Of a stretch of DNA of 64,000 nt, positions 6,001-12,000 are shown piece by piece. Made by a program: the position numbers. The stretch lies in assembly GCF_011045215.1 (NCBI RefSeq), contig NZ_CP049201.1, one strand, 5' to 3'. The stretch's first letter is position 1. Each line of letters begins with the position of its first letter. Source of the DNA: Escherichia coli. GTDB taxonomy: Bacteria > Pseudomonadota > Gammaproteobacteria > Enterobacterales > Enterobacteriaceae.

Positions 6001-9000
6001 ATCGCACTGGTGCCGACTTTGCGGTGATGAGCGGAGGCGGAATTCGTGATTCTATCGAAGCAGGCGATATCAGCTATAAAAACGTGCTGAAAGTGCAGCC
6101 ATTCGGCAATGTGGTGGTGTATGCCGACATGACCGGTAAAGAGGTGATTGATTACCTGACCGCCGTCGCGCAGATGAAGCCAGATTCAGGTGCCTACCCG
6201 CAATTTGCCAACGTTAGCTTTGTGGCGAAAGACGGCAAACTGAACGACCTTAAAATCAAAGGCGAACCGGTCGATCCAGCGAAAACTTACCGTATGGCGA
6301 CATTAAACTTCAATGCCACCGGCGGTGATGGATATCCGCGCCTTGATAACAAACCGGGCTATGTGAATACCGGCTTTATTGATGCCGAAGTGCTGAAAGC
6401 GTATATCCAGAAAAGCTCGCCGCTGGATGTGAGTGTTTATGAACCGAAAGGTGAGGTGAGCTGGCAGTAATCCGAAAGTGCCGGATGTTCGCATCCGGCA
6501 CAATGCTTAATCGCGGCGGGCGATATCAGCAAATTTGGCATCGAGGATCTTCGCCAGGTCGCCTGCCGCCAGTTCGATATCCAGTCCGCGCTTGCCGCCG
6601 GAAACATAAATAGTGGCAAATTCTTGTGCAGGGGCGTCGATAATTGTTGGCAGACGTTTTTTCTGCCCCAGTGGGCTAATCCCCCCTACCAGATACCCCG
6701 TCGAACGCTGCGCGGCCATCGGATCAGCCATCTCAACTTTCTTGGCACCCAGCGCTTTTGCTACTTTTTTAAGATCCAGTTGACCTGCGACCGGCGTAAC
6801 GGCCACGGCAAGGTGTTTCATATCACCGTTCACTGCCACCAGCAGCGTTTTGTAGACCTGATCCGGATTCAAACCTAATTTTTTGACGACTTCATCGCCA
6901 AAATTGGTTTCAGCCGGATCGTGCTCGTAGGTATGGATTTGAAACGAAATCTTGTTTTTTTCGAGTAATTTAACTGCGGGTGTCATGGTAATTTTCCTGC
7001 CTTAAACAAAAAAACGAAGCAAGCATACGCCTGATGGCGATCCAAAAAAAAGAGTCATCTTGCCTAAGAGTATTGGCAGGATGGTGAGATTGAGCGACAA
7101 TCGAGTTACACCGTCGCTTAAAGTGACGGCATAATAATAAAAAAATGAAATTCCTCTTTGACGGGCCAATAGCGATATTGGCCATTTTTTTAGCGCAACA
7201 TTTGCGGCAAATTCCCTTCTCCATACAGGTGTAGTGCACCGACCGCGACCACATATCGCCCCGGCGGCATGGCGCGTAATTTATCCCGCCAGGCGAGATT
7301 TCGCTGATGCATCAGCACATCGTACAGCGACTGACTGAACGTATTGGGCAGCGTTATTTCATTATTTTGCGGCGGCGCATTCAGCCACCAGCTCATCATT
7401 TGTTGCAGCAACCGTGCGTTGGTATGCCAGTGGGTCAGCGTATCGTCCAGCAGCGCCAGTCCTTTGTCAGGGAGCTGGAGCAACATGGCAATCTGGTTTT
7501 CAGCCCCTTCCAGTTCAATCACGGGTTTATGTTGTTGCTTCGCCGCCTGCAATAGCTGGTAATCGATACCGTATTCTGCCCGCAGCCCCAGTTTTTGCGC
7601 CTGCGTCGCCTGAAGAACCATCGCGATTTGCCACAGCGGTTGGGTAGAAAAGAGCGAGGGAGAAATGCCCATCTCCTGGCTAATGTGCTGCAGGTTTTGG
7701 AGTTGCTCCTCGCTAATGCGCTCTTCCAGCGCCTCACAGGCAGGCAAATTAGCAAAAGGCGTATCGCTGGTGGAAACATCCGCCTCGACGATCAGCGCAT
7801 CGGCGTTTTTGAGCTTTTTGAGCAAACGGGTGGGCAGGGGAGCCATATCGTGGCTACCCATATGAATACTGCCAATCAGATGAAAATGGCGATTGCCGGG
7901 AAGGGTGATATCGATGGCAGGCCAGGTGTAATGATTACCGCGCAGCGCGGCCCAAAGCGTTTTTACCCGGTACAACAGATCCATACGACCTCCCTTTGTG
8001 AAATATCATGCTAGCGCGCGGGGAGGGATGGCGCAAATGGAGTTGGGGACTTGTTTAATGTGTTTGTATGATTCAGTATGTTCTTGTATCGCTATTCACA
8101 GGGAAGCAACAGTTAAAAAGTATGAAACAGGCAACAAGAAAACCGACGACACCCGGAGATATTCTTCTCTATGAATATCTGGAACCGCTCGATTTGAAAA
8201 TCAATGAGTTAGCAGGGTTGCTGCATGTTCATCGTAATAGCGTCAGTACACTGATCAATAACAATCGTAAACTCACCACTGAGATGGCATTCCGTCTGGC
8301 GAAAGTTTTTGATACCACAGTCGATTTTTGGCTAAACCTCCAGGCGGCAGTTGATCTTTGGGAAGTTGAAAACAACATGCGCACCCAGGAAGAATTGGGA
8401 CGGATTGAAACAGTGGCTGAATATTTGGCACGCCGTGAAGAGCGTGCAAAAAAGGTCGCGTAAGGCCAAAACATCGCTTCATCTCGTAGGCCGGATAAGG
8501 CGTTCACGCCGCATCCGGCATCCGAGCACCATTGCCTGATGCGACGCTTACGCGTCTTATCAGGCCTACAAACCTGTGCCTGAACCGTAGGCCGGAGAAG
8601 GCGTTCACGCCGCATCCGGCATCCGAGCACCATTGCCTGATGCGACGCTTACGCGTCTTATCAGGCCTACAAACCTGTGCCTGAACCGTAGGCCGGAGAA
8701 GGCGTTCACGCCGCATCCGGCATCCGAGCACCATTGCCTGATGCGACGCTTACGCGTCTTATCAGGCCTACAAACCTGTGCCTGAACCGTAGGCCGGAGA
8801 AGGCGTTCACGCCGCATCCGGCATCCGAGCACCATTGCCTGATGCGACGCTTACGCGTCTTATCAGGCCTACAAACCTGTGCCTGAACCGTAGGCCGGAG
8901 AAGGCGTTCACGCCGCATCCGGCATCCGAGCACCATTGCCTGATGCGACGCTTACGCGTCTTATCAGGCCTACAAACCTGTGCCTGAACCGTAGGCCGGA

Positions 9001-12000
9001 GAAGGCGTTCACACCGCATCCGGCAGTCATGCGTCGATGCCAAATGCGCCGCCCTAAAGCAGCGCATCCGCAATGACGTACTTATTCCTTCGGTTTAAAC
9101 CGCAGCAACCGGTTGGCGTTACTCACTACGGTAATCGACGAGAGCGCCATTGCCGCTCCGGCAACCACCGGGTTAAGCAGTGTTCCAGTAAACGGCCACA
9201 AAATACCGGCGGCAACCGGAATACCGATGCTGTTGTAGATAAACGCGCCGAGCAGGTTCTGCTTCATGTTGCGCAGCGTTGCGCGGGAAATAGCGAGCGC
9301 ATCCGCAACGCCCATCAGGCTATGGCGCATCAGGGTAATCGCCGCGGTTTCAATAGCAACATCACTGCCGCCACCCATCGCAATGCCGACATCCGCCTGA
9401 GCCAGCGCTGGCGCGTCGTTAATGCCGTCGCCCACCATTGCCACCTGACGTCCTTCACTTTGCAGACGTTTGATCGCTTCGGCTTTACCGTCTGGCAGCA
9501 CCCCGGCGATCACCTCATCAATCCCTGCTTCTTTGGCGATCGCATTGGCGGTGGTTGGGTTATCCCCGGTCAACATCACCAGACGATATCCCGCTTTATG
9601 CAGGCGTTGCAGCGCCGCCACGCTATCACTACGCAACGGATCGCGTACAGCCAGCAGGGCTACCGCTTTCCCGTCAACCGCCAGCAGCACTGGCGTTGCC
9701 CCTTGCGATGCCTGAGCTGAAATATCTGCTTCAATCGCTTTAGTATCAACTTGCTGGTCATTTAACAGCGCCTGATTGCCCAGCAATAACGCATGACCTT
9801 CAGCTTCACCGCTCACGCCCAGCCCGCGCAATGTGCGGAAACCGTTGACCTGCGGCAGCTGCATATCGCTTGCTTTATCGAGGATCGCCCGTGCCAGCGG
9901 ATGGCTGGAACCTTGTTCCAGTGCCGCCGCCAGACGCAGCGCCTGCGCTTCGTCAAAATCAGCAAATGTTTTCACTGCGACAACCTGCGGCTTCCCTTCG
10001 GTCAGCGTCCCGGTTTTATCGAACACGACGGTATCGAGTGTACTGGCGCGTTGCAGCGCGTCGGCGTCCCGCACCAGCACGCCAAACTCAGCCGCCCGCC
10101 CGACGCCGGAAATAATCGACATCGGCGTCGCCAGCCCCAGCGCACACGGACAGGCAATAATCAGCACCGTGGTGGCAATCACCAGGGTATAGACAATCTG
10201 CGGTGCCGGACCAAAGAAATACCAGATTGCCGCACTGACAAGCGCAATCACCACTACTACCGGCACAAATACGGCTGAGATTTTATCCGCCAGCTGACCG
10301 ATTTCTGGCTTGCTGCTCTGGGCCTGGCGCACCATACGAATAATCCTTGATAACGTGGTATGGCTGCCAACCGCACTGGCGCGAAACAGCACGCTACCGT
10401 CCTGCACCACTGTCCCGGCATGGACGCTATCGCCTTCGCCTTTTTGCTGCGGGATAGGTTCGCCCGTCAGCATCGCTTCATCCAGCCATGCTTCGCCTTG
10501 GGTAATCTCGCCATCTACCGGCACGCGATCGCCGGTCGTCAGGCGCAGCAACATACCTGGCTGCACTTCCGCCAGCGGCACGCTTTTTTCACCTTCGTCA
10601 GTAACCAGGCGCGCCGTCGGTGGGGTTAAATCGAGTAATTTCTCCAGCGCCTTAGAAGAACGCTGACGTGCGCGCGCTTCCAGCATATGACCGAGATTAA
10701 TCAGACCGATAATCATCGCACTGGCTTCATAGTAAAGATGCCGCGCTTCCATCGGGAACCACTGCGGCCACAGGTTGACGCTCATCGAATAGAGCCACGC
10801 CACACCCGTACCCAGCGCCACCAGCGTATCCATCGTCGCCGCACCGTTCAGCAGGCTTTTCCATGCACTGCGGTAAAAATGGCCGCCGGCGAAAACCATC
10901 ACTGCCAGGGTTATCAGGCCGATAACCAACCACAGGCTGCGGTTGTCAGCGGTGACCATCATGTTATCGCCGATCATCCCCCAGACCATCACCGGGATAC
11001 CCACCGCCAGTGCGACAATCGCCTGCCAGCGGAAGCGCTTCATCGTAGCGACGGCGGTTTCCTGCTGGCGCTCGCGGCGTTTAGCGTCATCTTCAATCGC
11101 TTCCGCGCCGTAGCCCGCTTTTTCCACCGCCTGCACTAAATCTTGTGGGGAGGCACTGCCCATCACCAGCGCAGTACGCTCCGCCAGGTTTACCCGTGCC
11201 TGAGTGACGCCCGGTACGCTTTGCAGCGCATTTTGTACGCGGGTGACACAGCTGGCGCAGCTCATGCCGCTCAGCAGCAACTGCTGGCTGTCATCGTCAT
11301 CGGCAGTCGCTGCCGGAAGCGCCTCAGAAACCGCTGTCAGTGCTTCCGACGGGATTGATGACTCCGCCAGCGGTTTAGCCTTTGGGTGGCTTACAGATGC
11401 GTCATAACCCGCTTGTTTGATGGTTTCGATCAGCTGTTCTGCACTGGCAGTCCCGGTAACGTGCGCTTCAGTGATAGACACATCCGCTTGTTCCACATCC
11501 GGGCGCTGTTCGAGACTTTCTTTCACGCGTTTAACGCAGTGACCGCAGGACAGGCCGTCCAGGGTCAGGTCGATAGTTTGTGACATAAAACACTCCTTTA
11601 AGACAGTTTTGACTGGCTGTGATAAAGGTTAAACCTTCCAGCAAGGGGAAGGTCAAGAAATTAATAACCCAGGCGAGTAAAAGTCCGTAAAGATTAAAAA
11701 ATCGGCTCGATTTGCATCAGGATTAGACATTTATCTCTTTGTTTTCCTGTAGTTAAGTTGCGGGTGCTAAGTTAAATCAGGATGCCTGAAAATCGGCACC
11801 GGGGTGAGGAATTACCTCCCGCATCTATAAAAAGGAGTTAACAAAAGATGTTAGATGCAAACAAATTACAGCAGGCAGTGGATCAGGCTTACACCCAATT
11901 TCACTCACTTAACGGCGGACAAAATGCCGATTACATTCCCTTTCTGGCGAATGTACCAGGTCAACTGGCAGCAGTGGCTATCGTGACCAGCGATGGCAAC

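What the first reader, a model, noticed from the sequence alone, without database searches (positions are those of the whole stretch)
8486..9050. Exactly periodic 101-bp BIME array (about 5.5 copies) between ybaQ and copA
Five full and one partial copy of a 101-bp unit, each containing two inverted REP palindromes, follow the convergent ybaQ and copA genes. Arrays like this bind IHF or gyrase and act as transcript stabilisers or terminators. Copy number is probably strain-variable, and the repeats yield four spurious near-identical ORFs on the minus strand.
Basis: seen in the sequence. Interest (0 to 1): 0.3.

Follow-up and report, generated by a model that had tools for sequence, protein, structure and literature searches.

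The report
Variable-copy BIME-2 REP repeat array
This is an ordinary, already well-described kind of E. coli non-coding repeat: a tandem array of paired REP hairpins (BIME-2) between the ends of ybaQ and copA, whose copy number differs from strain to strain.

Summary
Window 8485-9025 holds 5.36 head-to-tail copies of a 101-bp unit with no indels; units 2-5 are 100% identical. Each unit is a Y palindromic unit (35 nt), a 12-nt linker, an inverted Z2 unit (37 nt) and a 17-nt linker. That is the defining architecture of a BIME-2 element. It has the same layout as K-12 REP325, and all five full units pass Rfam's naRNA4 threshold.

It lies between convergent ybaQ (HigA-type antitoxin) and copA. At this locus E. 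coli genomes form an allelic series of 113+101n bp, with n = 0-5 and 7 seen. B2 strains have no REP at all. K-12 has 2.36 copies. The 5.36-copy allele is uncommon but recurs in at least three other complete genomes, and 7.36-copy alleles exist.

The IHF suggestion does not fit. IHF sites belong to BIME-1 (Z1 plus L linker), and none is present here, whereas a true BIME-1 with an IHF consensus sits at 51393-51494. The ORFs in the array are spurious.

The function is inferred from published work, not tested here: a two-way 3'-UTR hairpin barrier or partial terminator and a gyrase site. The thing is already known; interest is low.

The parts
8122..8463 (+). ybaQ, a HigA-family antitoxin / DNA-binding regulator; its 3' UTR runs into the array
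   Evidence: NCBIfam TIGR02607 HigA, 103 bits against a cutoff of 47.7. Annotated as ybaQ in every RefSeq locus fetched.
8464..8485 (.). 22-nt unique leader between the ybaQ stop codon and the first REP
   Evidence: The sequence GGCCAAAACATCGCTTCATCTC is constant (one C/T variant, in PapRG-06-5) in all REP-bearing alleles compared.
8485..9025 (.). BIME-2 tandem array: 5.36 copies of a 101-bp unit, comprising 11 palindromic units (6 Y and 5 Z2)
   Evidence: TRF period 101, 99% matches, no indels. Units listed in register.
8486..8520 (+). Y palindromic unit (GTAG 5' on the + strand), first of six. The others are at 8587-8621, 8688-8722, 8789-8823, 8890-8924 and 8991-9025.
   Evidence: Pattern search. 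Folds as an imperfect hairpin, -12.2 kcal/mol as DNA, z = -4.4. Matches the Y half of the Rfam naRNA4 consensus.
8521..8532 (.). 12-nt head-to-head linker TCCGAGCACCAT (S-type), repeated in each unit
   Evidence: Unit dissection. No IHF consensus.
8533..8569 (-). Z2 palindromic unit (GTAG on the - strand), first of five. The others are at 8634-8670, 8735-8771, 8836-8872 and 8937-8973.
   Evidence: Pattern search. Hairpin of -11.6 kcal/mol, z = -5.8. One loop mismatch to the Z2 half of the naRNA4 consensus. Distinct from the short Z1 seen at 51396-51424.
8570..8586 (.). 17-nt tail-to-tail linker AAACCTGTGCCTGAACC, identical in all five copies
8489..8970 (+). Five naRNA4-like (Y-linker-Z2) units: 8489-8566, 8590-8667, 8691-8768, 8792-8869 and 8893-8970
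   Evidence: Rfam RF02564 scores 87.1, 81, 81, 81 and 81 bits against a gathering score of 59.5.
9026..9081 (.). 12-nt linker plus the conserved terminal hairpin (stem-loop 9043-9068), which begins 13 nt after the copA stop codon
   Evidence: The hairpin is present in the - strand centroid fold and gives -11.1 kcal/mol as DNA. It is retained in the B2 strain IHE3034, which has no REP at all.
9082..11586 (-). copA, copper-exporting P-type ATPase; its 3' UTR enters the array from the other side
   Evidence: NCBIfam NF007952, 1747.9 bits against a cutoff of 1316.

Best explanation
The feature is a BIME-2 element, a tandem cluster of REP doublets (Y and Z2 palindromic units in alternating orientation). 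It occupies the shared 3' intergenic region of the convergent genes ybaQ and copA.

Shown here:
- The architecture, and the family assignment based on it.
- The locus behaves as a variable-number tandem repeat in E. coli. Alleles differ by whole 101-bp units while the outer boundaries stay fixed.
- Interior units are homogenised.

This pattern is what in-register unequal recombination, replication slippage or gene conversion between the direct repeats would produce. Fresh insertions would not preserve the boundaries.

Inferred from published work on other BIME-2 elements, not tested here:
- When ybaQ or copA transcription runs into the array, the stable REP hairpins in the RNA block 3'-to-5' exonucleases and cause partial, Rho-assisted attenuation. 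The array would then act as a two-way 3'-UTR barrier between the convergent genes, as reported for REP325.
- In the DNA, the Y units are preferred DNA gyrase binding and cleavage sites. These could absorb the positive supercoils that pile up between convergent transcription units.
- More copies probably means a stronger version of the same effects, not a new function.
For: Architecture:
- Y (35 nt), linker (12 nt), Z2 (37 nt) and linker (17 nt) sum to 101 bp, in alternating orientation.
- This matches the published definition of BIME-2: z2 and y, short S linker, multiple tandem copies, well conserved within a locus, variable in number between strains (PMC3333891; PMC1187871).
- All five full units exceed Rfam's naRNA4 gathering score. 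That family is built on REP325, six Y-linker-Z2 repeats of 77 bp separated by identical spacers (PMC4550694).
- An in-window contrast is a BIME-1 at 51393-51494, with a short Z1, a long linker, an IHF consensus and a Y.

Allelic series:
- Intergenic lengths of 57, 113, 214, 315, 416, 517, 618 and 820 bp were read from fetched genomes.
- In a spread sample of 60 of 5421 records: no REP 14, 0.36 copies 14, 1.36 copies 13, 2.36 copies 11, 5.36 copies 1, ybaQ not matched 7.

Homogenisation:
- Against the nearest genome (PapM-32-1; 26 mismatches and no indels in 17,301 bp), 4 mismatches fall in the 541-bp array. About 0.7-0.8 would be expected (Poisson p about 0.006-0.01).
- At all four sites the window carries the array's majority base.
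- Strain Santai independently has four identical interior units (u2-u5) carrying its own private variants, with u6 one base different.

Function, from the literature:
- Gyrase cleavage sites are over-represented in BIME-2, mostly in y units (PMC6379681).
- REPs between convergent genes are associated with higher expression of both genes.

Folding:
- Both strands of the intergenic RNA fold far better than shuffles (z = -9.6 and -9.1).
Against: - No expression, 3'-end or gyrase data exist for this locus in anything I could reach. The supplements of the gyrase-mapping and REP325 papers held as text mention neither ybaQ nor this BIME.
- The same preprint reports that REP effects are strongly context-dependent and that terminal REPs do not lengthen mRNA half-lives genome-wide.
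- B2 strains do without any REP here, and some strains lack ybaQ, so the array is dispensable.
- The perfect identity of interior units could partly be a polishing artefact of assembly in a 101-bp repeat.
Confidence: 0.85

Rival explanations
1. The array is a naRNA locus. ybaQ read-through transcripts would be processed into roughly 77-nt Y-Z2 RNAs that, together with HU, bridge DNA cruciforms and condense the nucleoid, as proposed for REP325/naRNA4.
For: Five units exceed the Rfam naRNA4 gathering score in the ybaQ-sense orientation (81-87 bits against 59.5). Qian et al. 2015 reported HU binding and nucleoid effects for naRNA4 (PMC4550694).
Against: A 2026 preprint that includes the same senior author found that deleting or over-expressing REP325 does not change nucleoid volume, that no stable HU-cruciform-naRNA4 complex forms, and that REP-REP contacts are absent in Hi-C. 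The Rfam hit reflects only that the model is a Y-Z2 doublet; a single BIME unit at 1350-1428 also passes. There is no transcript evidence here, and many strains lack the array.
Confidence: 0.07
2. The array is an IHF-binding BIME (BIME-1, also called RIB or RIP), a site for DNA bending by integration host factor.
For: IHF binding is documented for the L linker of BIME-1 (PMC3333891).
Against: The Z units are the long Z2 type, not Z1. The head-to-head linker is 12 nt, not the long L motif. BIME-1 occurs as single copies. The IHF consensus WATCARNNNNTTR is absent from 8464-9081 but present in the genuine BIME-1 at 51434-51446.
Confidence: 0.02
3. The repeats encode small repeated proteins: the 76-aa ORFs on the minus strand or the 50-aa ORFs on the plus strand.
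For: Three identical 76-aa ORFs and four identical 50-aa ORFs with start codons exist.
Against: A 101-bp period is not a multiple of three, so no frame persists through the array. There are no Pfam or NCBIfam hits. The exact sequences are absent from a collection of about 15 billion proteins. No CDS is annotated in the array in any of the RefSeq loci fetched, including the 7.36-copy alleles. ORFs on both strands are expected from palindromic GC-rich DNA.
Confidence: 0.01
4. The copy number, or the perfect identity of interior units, is an assembly or polishing artefact and not a biological feature.
For: A 541-bp array of 101-bp units cannot be spanned by short reads. The four differences from PapM-32-1 are exactly those that majority-base polishing of multi-mapped reads would erase, while the edge units, anchored in unique flanks, keep their private variants.
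Against: The same 618-bp intergenic length occurs in three independent complete genomes: PapM-32-1, 2824 and CUVM53. Longer alleles of 820 bp exist. Strain Santai shows an independent block of identical interior units with its own variants. So both the size and the homogeneity are biologically plausible.
Confidence: 0.1

Closest known systems
BIME-2 family of bacterial interspersed mosaic elements (Gilson/Bachellier/Hofnung nomenclature; REPIN clusters in later terminology)
   Same: It has Y and Z2 palindromic units in alternating orientation, a short head-to-head linker, and multiple tandem copies that are nearly identical within the locus. It is extragenic, at gene 3' ends, and its length is polymorphic between strains.
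   Different: Nothing of substance. With 11 canonical units it is close to the K-12 maximum of 12. This particular allele is longer than K-12's 2.36 copies, but longer ones (7.36 copies, 15 units) exist at the same locus.
REP325 / naRNA4 (Rfam RF02564) between yjdM and yjdN in E. coli K-12
   Same: It has the same Y-linker-Z2 doublets of about 77 nt, separated by identical short spacers, with 5.36 copies against 6. The orientation relative to the upstream gene is the same (Y first in ybaQ sense). It scores above the Rfam threshold.
   Different: REP325 lies between tandem genes of one operon, whereas this array lies between convergent genes. The linker sequences differ: the naRNA4 consensus linker region aligns with lower posterior probability and several mismatches. 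No experimental data exist for this locus.
BIME-1 (RIB/RIP, the IHF-binding REP element)
   Same: It contains a Y unit and an inverted Z-type unit.
   Different: BIME-1 has Z1 rather than Z2, a long L linker with an IHF site, and is single-copy. An example for direct comparison is at window 51393-51494.
ms32 VNTR marker of the Shigella/E. coli MLVA scheme (101-bp repeat unit)
   Same: It has the same 101-bp unit length and a similar allele range of 1-5.5 copies (PMC8215070).
   Different: Its primers are not in the window even with 3 mismatches allowed, so it is a different locus.

Membership tests
BIME-2 | Built from Y and Z2 palindromic units (not Z1) | tested here: met
   Six Y and five Z2 units were located by pattern search. 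They align to the Y and Z2 halves of the REP325-derived Rfam consensus. The Z unit is the long form GCGACGCTTACGCGTC, unlike the short Z1 GCGCTACGC at 51396-51424.
BIME-2 | Units alternate in orientation (REP / inverted REP), with the conserved GTAG at the foot | tested here: met
   GTAG is on the + strand for every Y and on the - strand for every Z2.
BIME-2 | Short head-to-head linker (S) without the L motif or IHF site | tested here: met
   The linker is 12 nt, and there is no WATCARNNNNTTR in the array.
BIME-2 | Multiple tandem copies, well conserved within one locus | tested here: met
   5.36 copies at 99% matches, with units 2-5 identical.
BIME-2 | Extragenic, usually at gene 3' ends | tested here: met
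   It lies between the stop codons of ybaQ (8463) and copA (9082).
BIME-2 | Copy number polymorphic between strains at a fixed locus | tested here: met
   Alleles of 0.36 to 7.36 copies share identical outer junctions.
BIME-2 | Bound and cleaved by DNA gyrase in vivo | not testable with these tools
   Known for a subset of K-12 BIME-2 elements (PMC6379681). This locus is not named in the supplement text held.
naRNA4 (Rfam RF02564) | Sequence and structure match above the curated gathering score | tested here: met
   81-87.1 bits against 59.5 for the five units on the + strand.
naRNA4 (Rfam RF02564) | Expressed as a discrete HU-bound RNA of about 77 nt | not testable with these tools
   No expression data are available. 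The nucleoid role itself is disputed.
BIME-1 / RIB | Z1 unit plus L linker carrying an IHF site, single copy | tested here: not met
   This array has Z2 units, a 12-nt linker, no IHF consensus and 5.36 tandem copies.

The most novel reading that the evidence does not exclude
Copy number at this BIME-2 might act as a heritable, fast-mutating 'dial'. Longer alleles (5-7 copies) would measurably change copA mRNA 3'-end protection, or read-through into ybaQ antisense, or gyrase recruitment between the convergent genes. Strains would then differ in copper-efflux expression without any change in promoter or coding sequence. The excess of array differences over flank differences between near-identical strains, all in the homogenising direction, would then reflect rapid turnover of a selectable trait.
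Probability: 0.12. Interest if true: 0.4.

Novelty: already known. Interest (0 to 1): 0.1.

Why it matters
It matters little beyond careful annotation. The array should be labelled as a BIME-2/REP repeat region, and the ORFs inside it should not be called as genes. Its copy number should be trusted only from reads that span it.

The locus is a clean natural allelic series: no REP, then 0.36 to 7.36 copies, with identical junctions. It sits next to a strongly inducible gene, copA. That would make it a convenient natural test bed for a question still under debate: whether REP arrays act in a dose-dependent way as terminators, RNA stabilisers or gyrase sites.

Tried and rejected
1. IHF binding: the consensus search found no site in the array, so this was rejected for this subtype.
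2. ms32 MLVA marker, which has the same 101-bp unit: its primers are absent from the window, so it is a different locus.
3. Coding potential of the array ORFs: no Pfam or NCBIfam hits, and the exact sequences are not in the protein collection.
4. Intrinsic terminator: the scan found none in 8464-9081; the only two hits lie inside copA, and their number is at the chance level.
5. Locus-specific experimental data: I searched the supplements of the gyrase Topo-Seq paper and the 2026 REP325 preprint for ybaQ and copA. The only hit was a differential-expression row for copA. A full-text search for ybaQ+copA+REP gave only unrelated papers.
6. K-12 RefSeq annotation: no REP feature is listed at this locus in the table returned, so I give no EcoCyc REP number.
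7. Exact allele frequencies over all 5,421 genomes: the search tool lists at most 60 rows, and tandem repeats let short alleles 'cover' the query with overlapping pieces. Only sample-based estimates are therefore given.
8. Source strain: no complete RefSeq genome matches the first 25 kb above about 97.8%. PapM-32-1 is 99.85% identical over the 17.3 kb compared (window 100-17400), which includes the array.
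Full report
**Observation**

The repeat is exactly as described, apart from its 3' limit.
- Tandem Repeats Finder reports 8485..9025, period 101, 5.4 copies, 99% matches, no indels, score 1068. It is the highest-scoring of the three arrays reported at score >=80 in the 64-kb window.
- The repeat finder gives spacings of 101, 101, 101 with 100% identity between internal copies.
- Laid out in register, units 2-5 are identical. Unit 1 differs at one base (T at 8496). The sixth unit matches for 36 nt, with one change (A at 9013), and then diverges.
- There are thus five full units and a partial sixth that is itself a complete palindromic unit, giving 5.36 copies.

**Surroundings**

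- ybaQ (8122..8463, + strand) matches the HigA antitoxin equivalog.
- copA (9082..11586, - strand) matches the CopA equivalog at 1748 bits.
- The genes are convergent, and the 618-bp gap between their stop codons is almost entirely the array.
- Every RefSeq genome I fetched annotates the same two genes and nothing between them.

**Anatomy**

Each 101-bp unit has four parts:
- a 35-nt Y palindromic unit with GTAG at its foot on the + strand;
- a 12-nt linker, TCCGAGCACCAT;
- a 37-nt Z unit in the opposite orientation;
- a 17-nt linker, AAACCTGTGCCTGAACC.

Each palindrome folds as the classic imperfect REP hairpin, at -10.7 to -12.2 kcal/mol as DNA and well beyond shuffles. The sixth Y, which carries the A at 9013, folds less well (-7.1 kcal/mol, z = -1.8). 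The interior Y units carry G where unit 1 and the consensus have T, which costs one base pair.

The Z unit is the long Z2 form. It differs by one loop base from the Z2 half of the Rfam naRNA4 consensus, which is built on REP325. It is clearly unlike the short Z1 that occurs at 51396-51424.

After the last Y come a 12-nt linker and a stem-loop at 9043-9068. This stem-loop begins 13 nt past the copA stop codon. It is older than the REPs, because the B2 strain IHE3034 keeps it in a 57-bp intergenic region that has no REP at all.

**Identity**

Published definitions say the following (PMC3333891; PMC1187871):
- BIME-1 is one Z1 and one Y separated by a long L linker that often carries an IHF site. 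It occurs as a single copy.
- BIME-2 is Z2 and Y separated by a short S linker. It occurs in multiple tandem copies that are well conserved within a locus and variable in number between strains.

The array meets every sequence-level criterion for BIME-2 and fails those for BIME-1. The IHF consensus WATCARNNNNTTR is absent from the intergenic region. It is present at 51434-51446, inside a textbook BIME-1 (Z1, long linker, Y) elsewhere in the window.

All five full units also pass Rfam's naRNA4 threshold, at 81-87 bits against 59.5. That family represents one Y-linker-Z2 doublet of REP325, which is six 77-bp doublets separated by identical spacers between yjdM and yjdN (PMC4550694). The architecture here is therefore the same as that of the best-studied BIME-2.

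**Variation between strains**

A query made of the two flanks alone found the locus in 5421 of 5426 complete E. coli genomes. I read intergenic sequences from fetched loci:

| Intergenic length | Strain(s) | Content |
|---|---|---|
| 57 bp | IHE3034 | no REP |
| 113 bp | W | one Y |
| 214 bp | O157:H7 | 1.36 copies |
| 315 bp | K-12 MG1655 | 2.36 copies |
| 416 bp | HS | 3.36 copies |
| 517 bp | PapRG-06-5 | 4.36 copies |
| 618 bp | this window, PapM-32-1, 2824, CUVM53 | 5.36 copies |
| 820 bp | Santai, ET350 | 7.36 copies |

The REP-bearing lengths follow 113+101n, and all of them share the same outer junctions. Some strains lack ybaQ altogether.

An evenly spaced sample of 60 records gave the following:

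| Class | Records |
|---|---|
| no REP | 14 |
| 0.36 copies | 14 |
| 1.36 copies | 13 |
| 2.36 copies | 11 |
| 5.36 copies | 1 (the top hit) |
| ybaQ not matched | 7 |

Among the 60 records with the most similar flanks:

| Class | Records |
|---|---|
| 7.36 copies | 12 |
| 5.36 copies | 2 |
| 4.36 copies | 1 |
| 3.36 copies | 8 |
| 2.36 copies | 7 |
| 1.36 copies | 29 |
| 0.36 copies | 1 |

The 5.36-copy allele is uncommon but neither unique nor the largest.

**How the array changes**

Whole-unit steps with fixed boundaries point to in-register unequal exchange or slippage between the direct repeats. New insertions would not keep the boundaries fixed.

The nearest complete genome, PapM-32-1, differs from the window at 26 positions in 17,301 bp, with no indels. 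Four of those positions lie in the 541-bp array, where about 0.7-0.8 would be expected (Poisson p about 0.006-0.01). At all four the window carries the base that is in the majority among the units, so the interior is more homogeneous than in its relative.

Strain Santai independently shows four identical interior units (u2-u5) with its own private variants, and u6 differs by one base. Repeated local amplification or gene conversion is thus a feature of this locus.

A polishing artefact could mimic the window's perfect interior and cannot be excluded without spanning reads. The copy number itself is corroborated by three independent genomes.

**Likely function (inferred, not tested here)**

- *No classic terminator.* The scan finds no hairpin-plus-U-tract in the intergenic region, so any termination is not of the intrinsic kind.
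- *Strong RNA structure.* Both RNA strands of the region fold far more stably than shuffles, with z about -9.
- *Closest experimental model.* For REP325, a 2026 preprint reports about ten-fold attenuation of the downstream gene, partial Rho dependence, stabilisation of the upstream mRNA, and a ladder of hairpin-ended transcripts. It also reports that REPs between convergent genes go with higher expression of both genes.
- *Gyrase.* Cleavage sites are over-represented in a subset of BIME-2 elements, chiefly in Y units, independently of transcription (PMC6379681).
- *Orientation and composition.* The linkers are C-rich on the + strand (11 C against 5 G per unit), and the doublets have the naRNA4 orientation in the ybaQ sense.

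My best account is therefore a two-way 3'-UTR barrier (exonuclease block plus partial Rho-assisted attenuation) that doubles as a gyrase site between convergent genes. Its effect size is likely to scale with copy number.

There are cautions. The same preprint stresses context dependence and finds no genome-wide half-life effect. The array is plainly dispensable, since many lineages lack it.

**Rivals**

- The nucleoid-condensing naRNA/HU model rests on a sequence match that any Y-Z2 doublet gives; a lone unit at 1350-1428 also passes. It is contradicted for REP325 itself by the 2026 work.
- The IHF reading fails at the sequence level.
- The ORFs are spurious. The period is not divisible by three, there are no family hits, no exact match exists among about 15 billion proteins, and none is annotated in RefSeq.

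**Verdict**

This is a correctly spotted but ordinary BIME-2 array at a locus whose length polymorphism is typical of the family, described since the 1990s (Bachellier et al. 1997, as summarised). It is already known, and interest is low.

Noticed in passing
window 51393-51494: A textbook BIME-1: a short Z1 unit (51396-51424), a 34-nt linker containing the IHF consensus (51434-51446, - strand), then a Y unit (51459-51493). It served as the in-window contrast to the BIME-2 array.
   Followed up: partly
window 7108-7191 (+): The sroB/ChiX small RNA (Rfam RF00368, 82 bits against a gathering score of 44). It abuts or overlaps the 3' end of ybaP (7190-7984, - strand), as in K-12, where chiX is 507204-507287 and ybaP starts at 507286.
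   Followed up: partly
window 1347-1431: A single Y-linker-Z2 doublet (one BIME-2 unit) that also passes the Rfam naRNA4 threshold (71.4 bits). It shows that the Rfam model recognises any such doublet.
   Followed up: no
window 42884-42937: Another pair of REP units in opposite orientation (a Y-like unit on the - strand and a Z-like unit on the + strand), found by pattern search.
   Followed up: no
window 32385-33375; related locus L012 15772-17301: A 318-bp (106-codon) tandem repeat, 3.1 copies at 72% identity. It probably lies inside a giant adhesin gene: PapM-32-1 annotates a BapA-related adhesin SiiEA that would start near window 15871, preceded by a TolC-family gene. Whether the repeat lies inside that gene was not checked.
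   Followed up: no
window 7985-8121; locus L009 (IHE3034) 1-271: ybaQ is an orphan HigA-type antitoxin here, with only 137 bp separating it from ybaP. The B2 strain IHE3034 has a RelE/ParE-family toxin gene immediately upstream of ybaQ and no REP downstream of it. Other strains (B19695) lack ybaQ entirely.
   Followed up: partly
window 9043-9068: A conserved stem-loop begins 13 nt after the copA stop codon and is present even in strains without any REP. Published work (recalled from memory, not checked here) links REP hairpins within 15 nt of a stop codon to ribosome stalling. Whether that applies to this non-REP hairpin is unknown.
   Followed up: no
window 43670-43766: A 33-bp tandem repeat, 2.9 copies at 73% matches, of unknown nature.
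   Followed up: no
window 1-25000: No complete RefSeq E. coli genome matches the first 25 kb better than about 97.8% overall. PapM-32-1 (from baboon stool, Gambia) is 99.85% identical over window 100-17400. The source strain is therefore not in the collection, and the region looks mosaic.
   Followed up: partly
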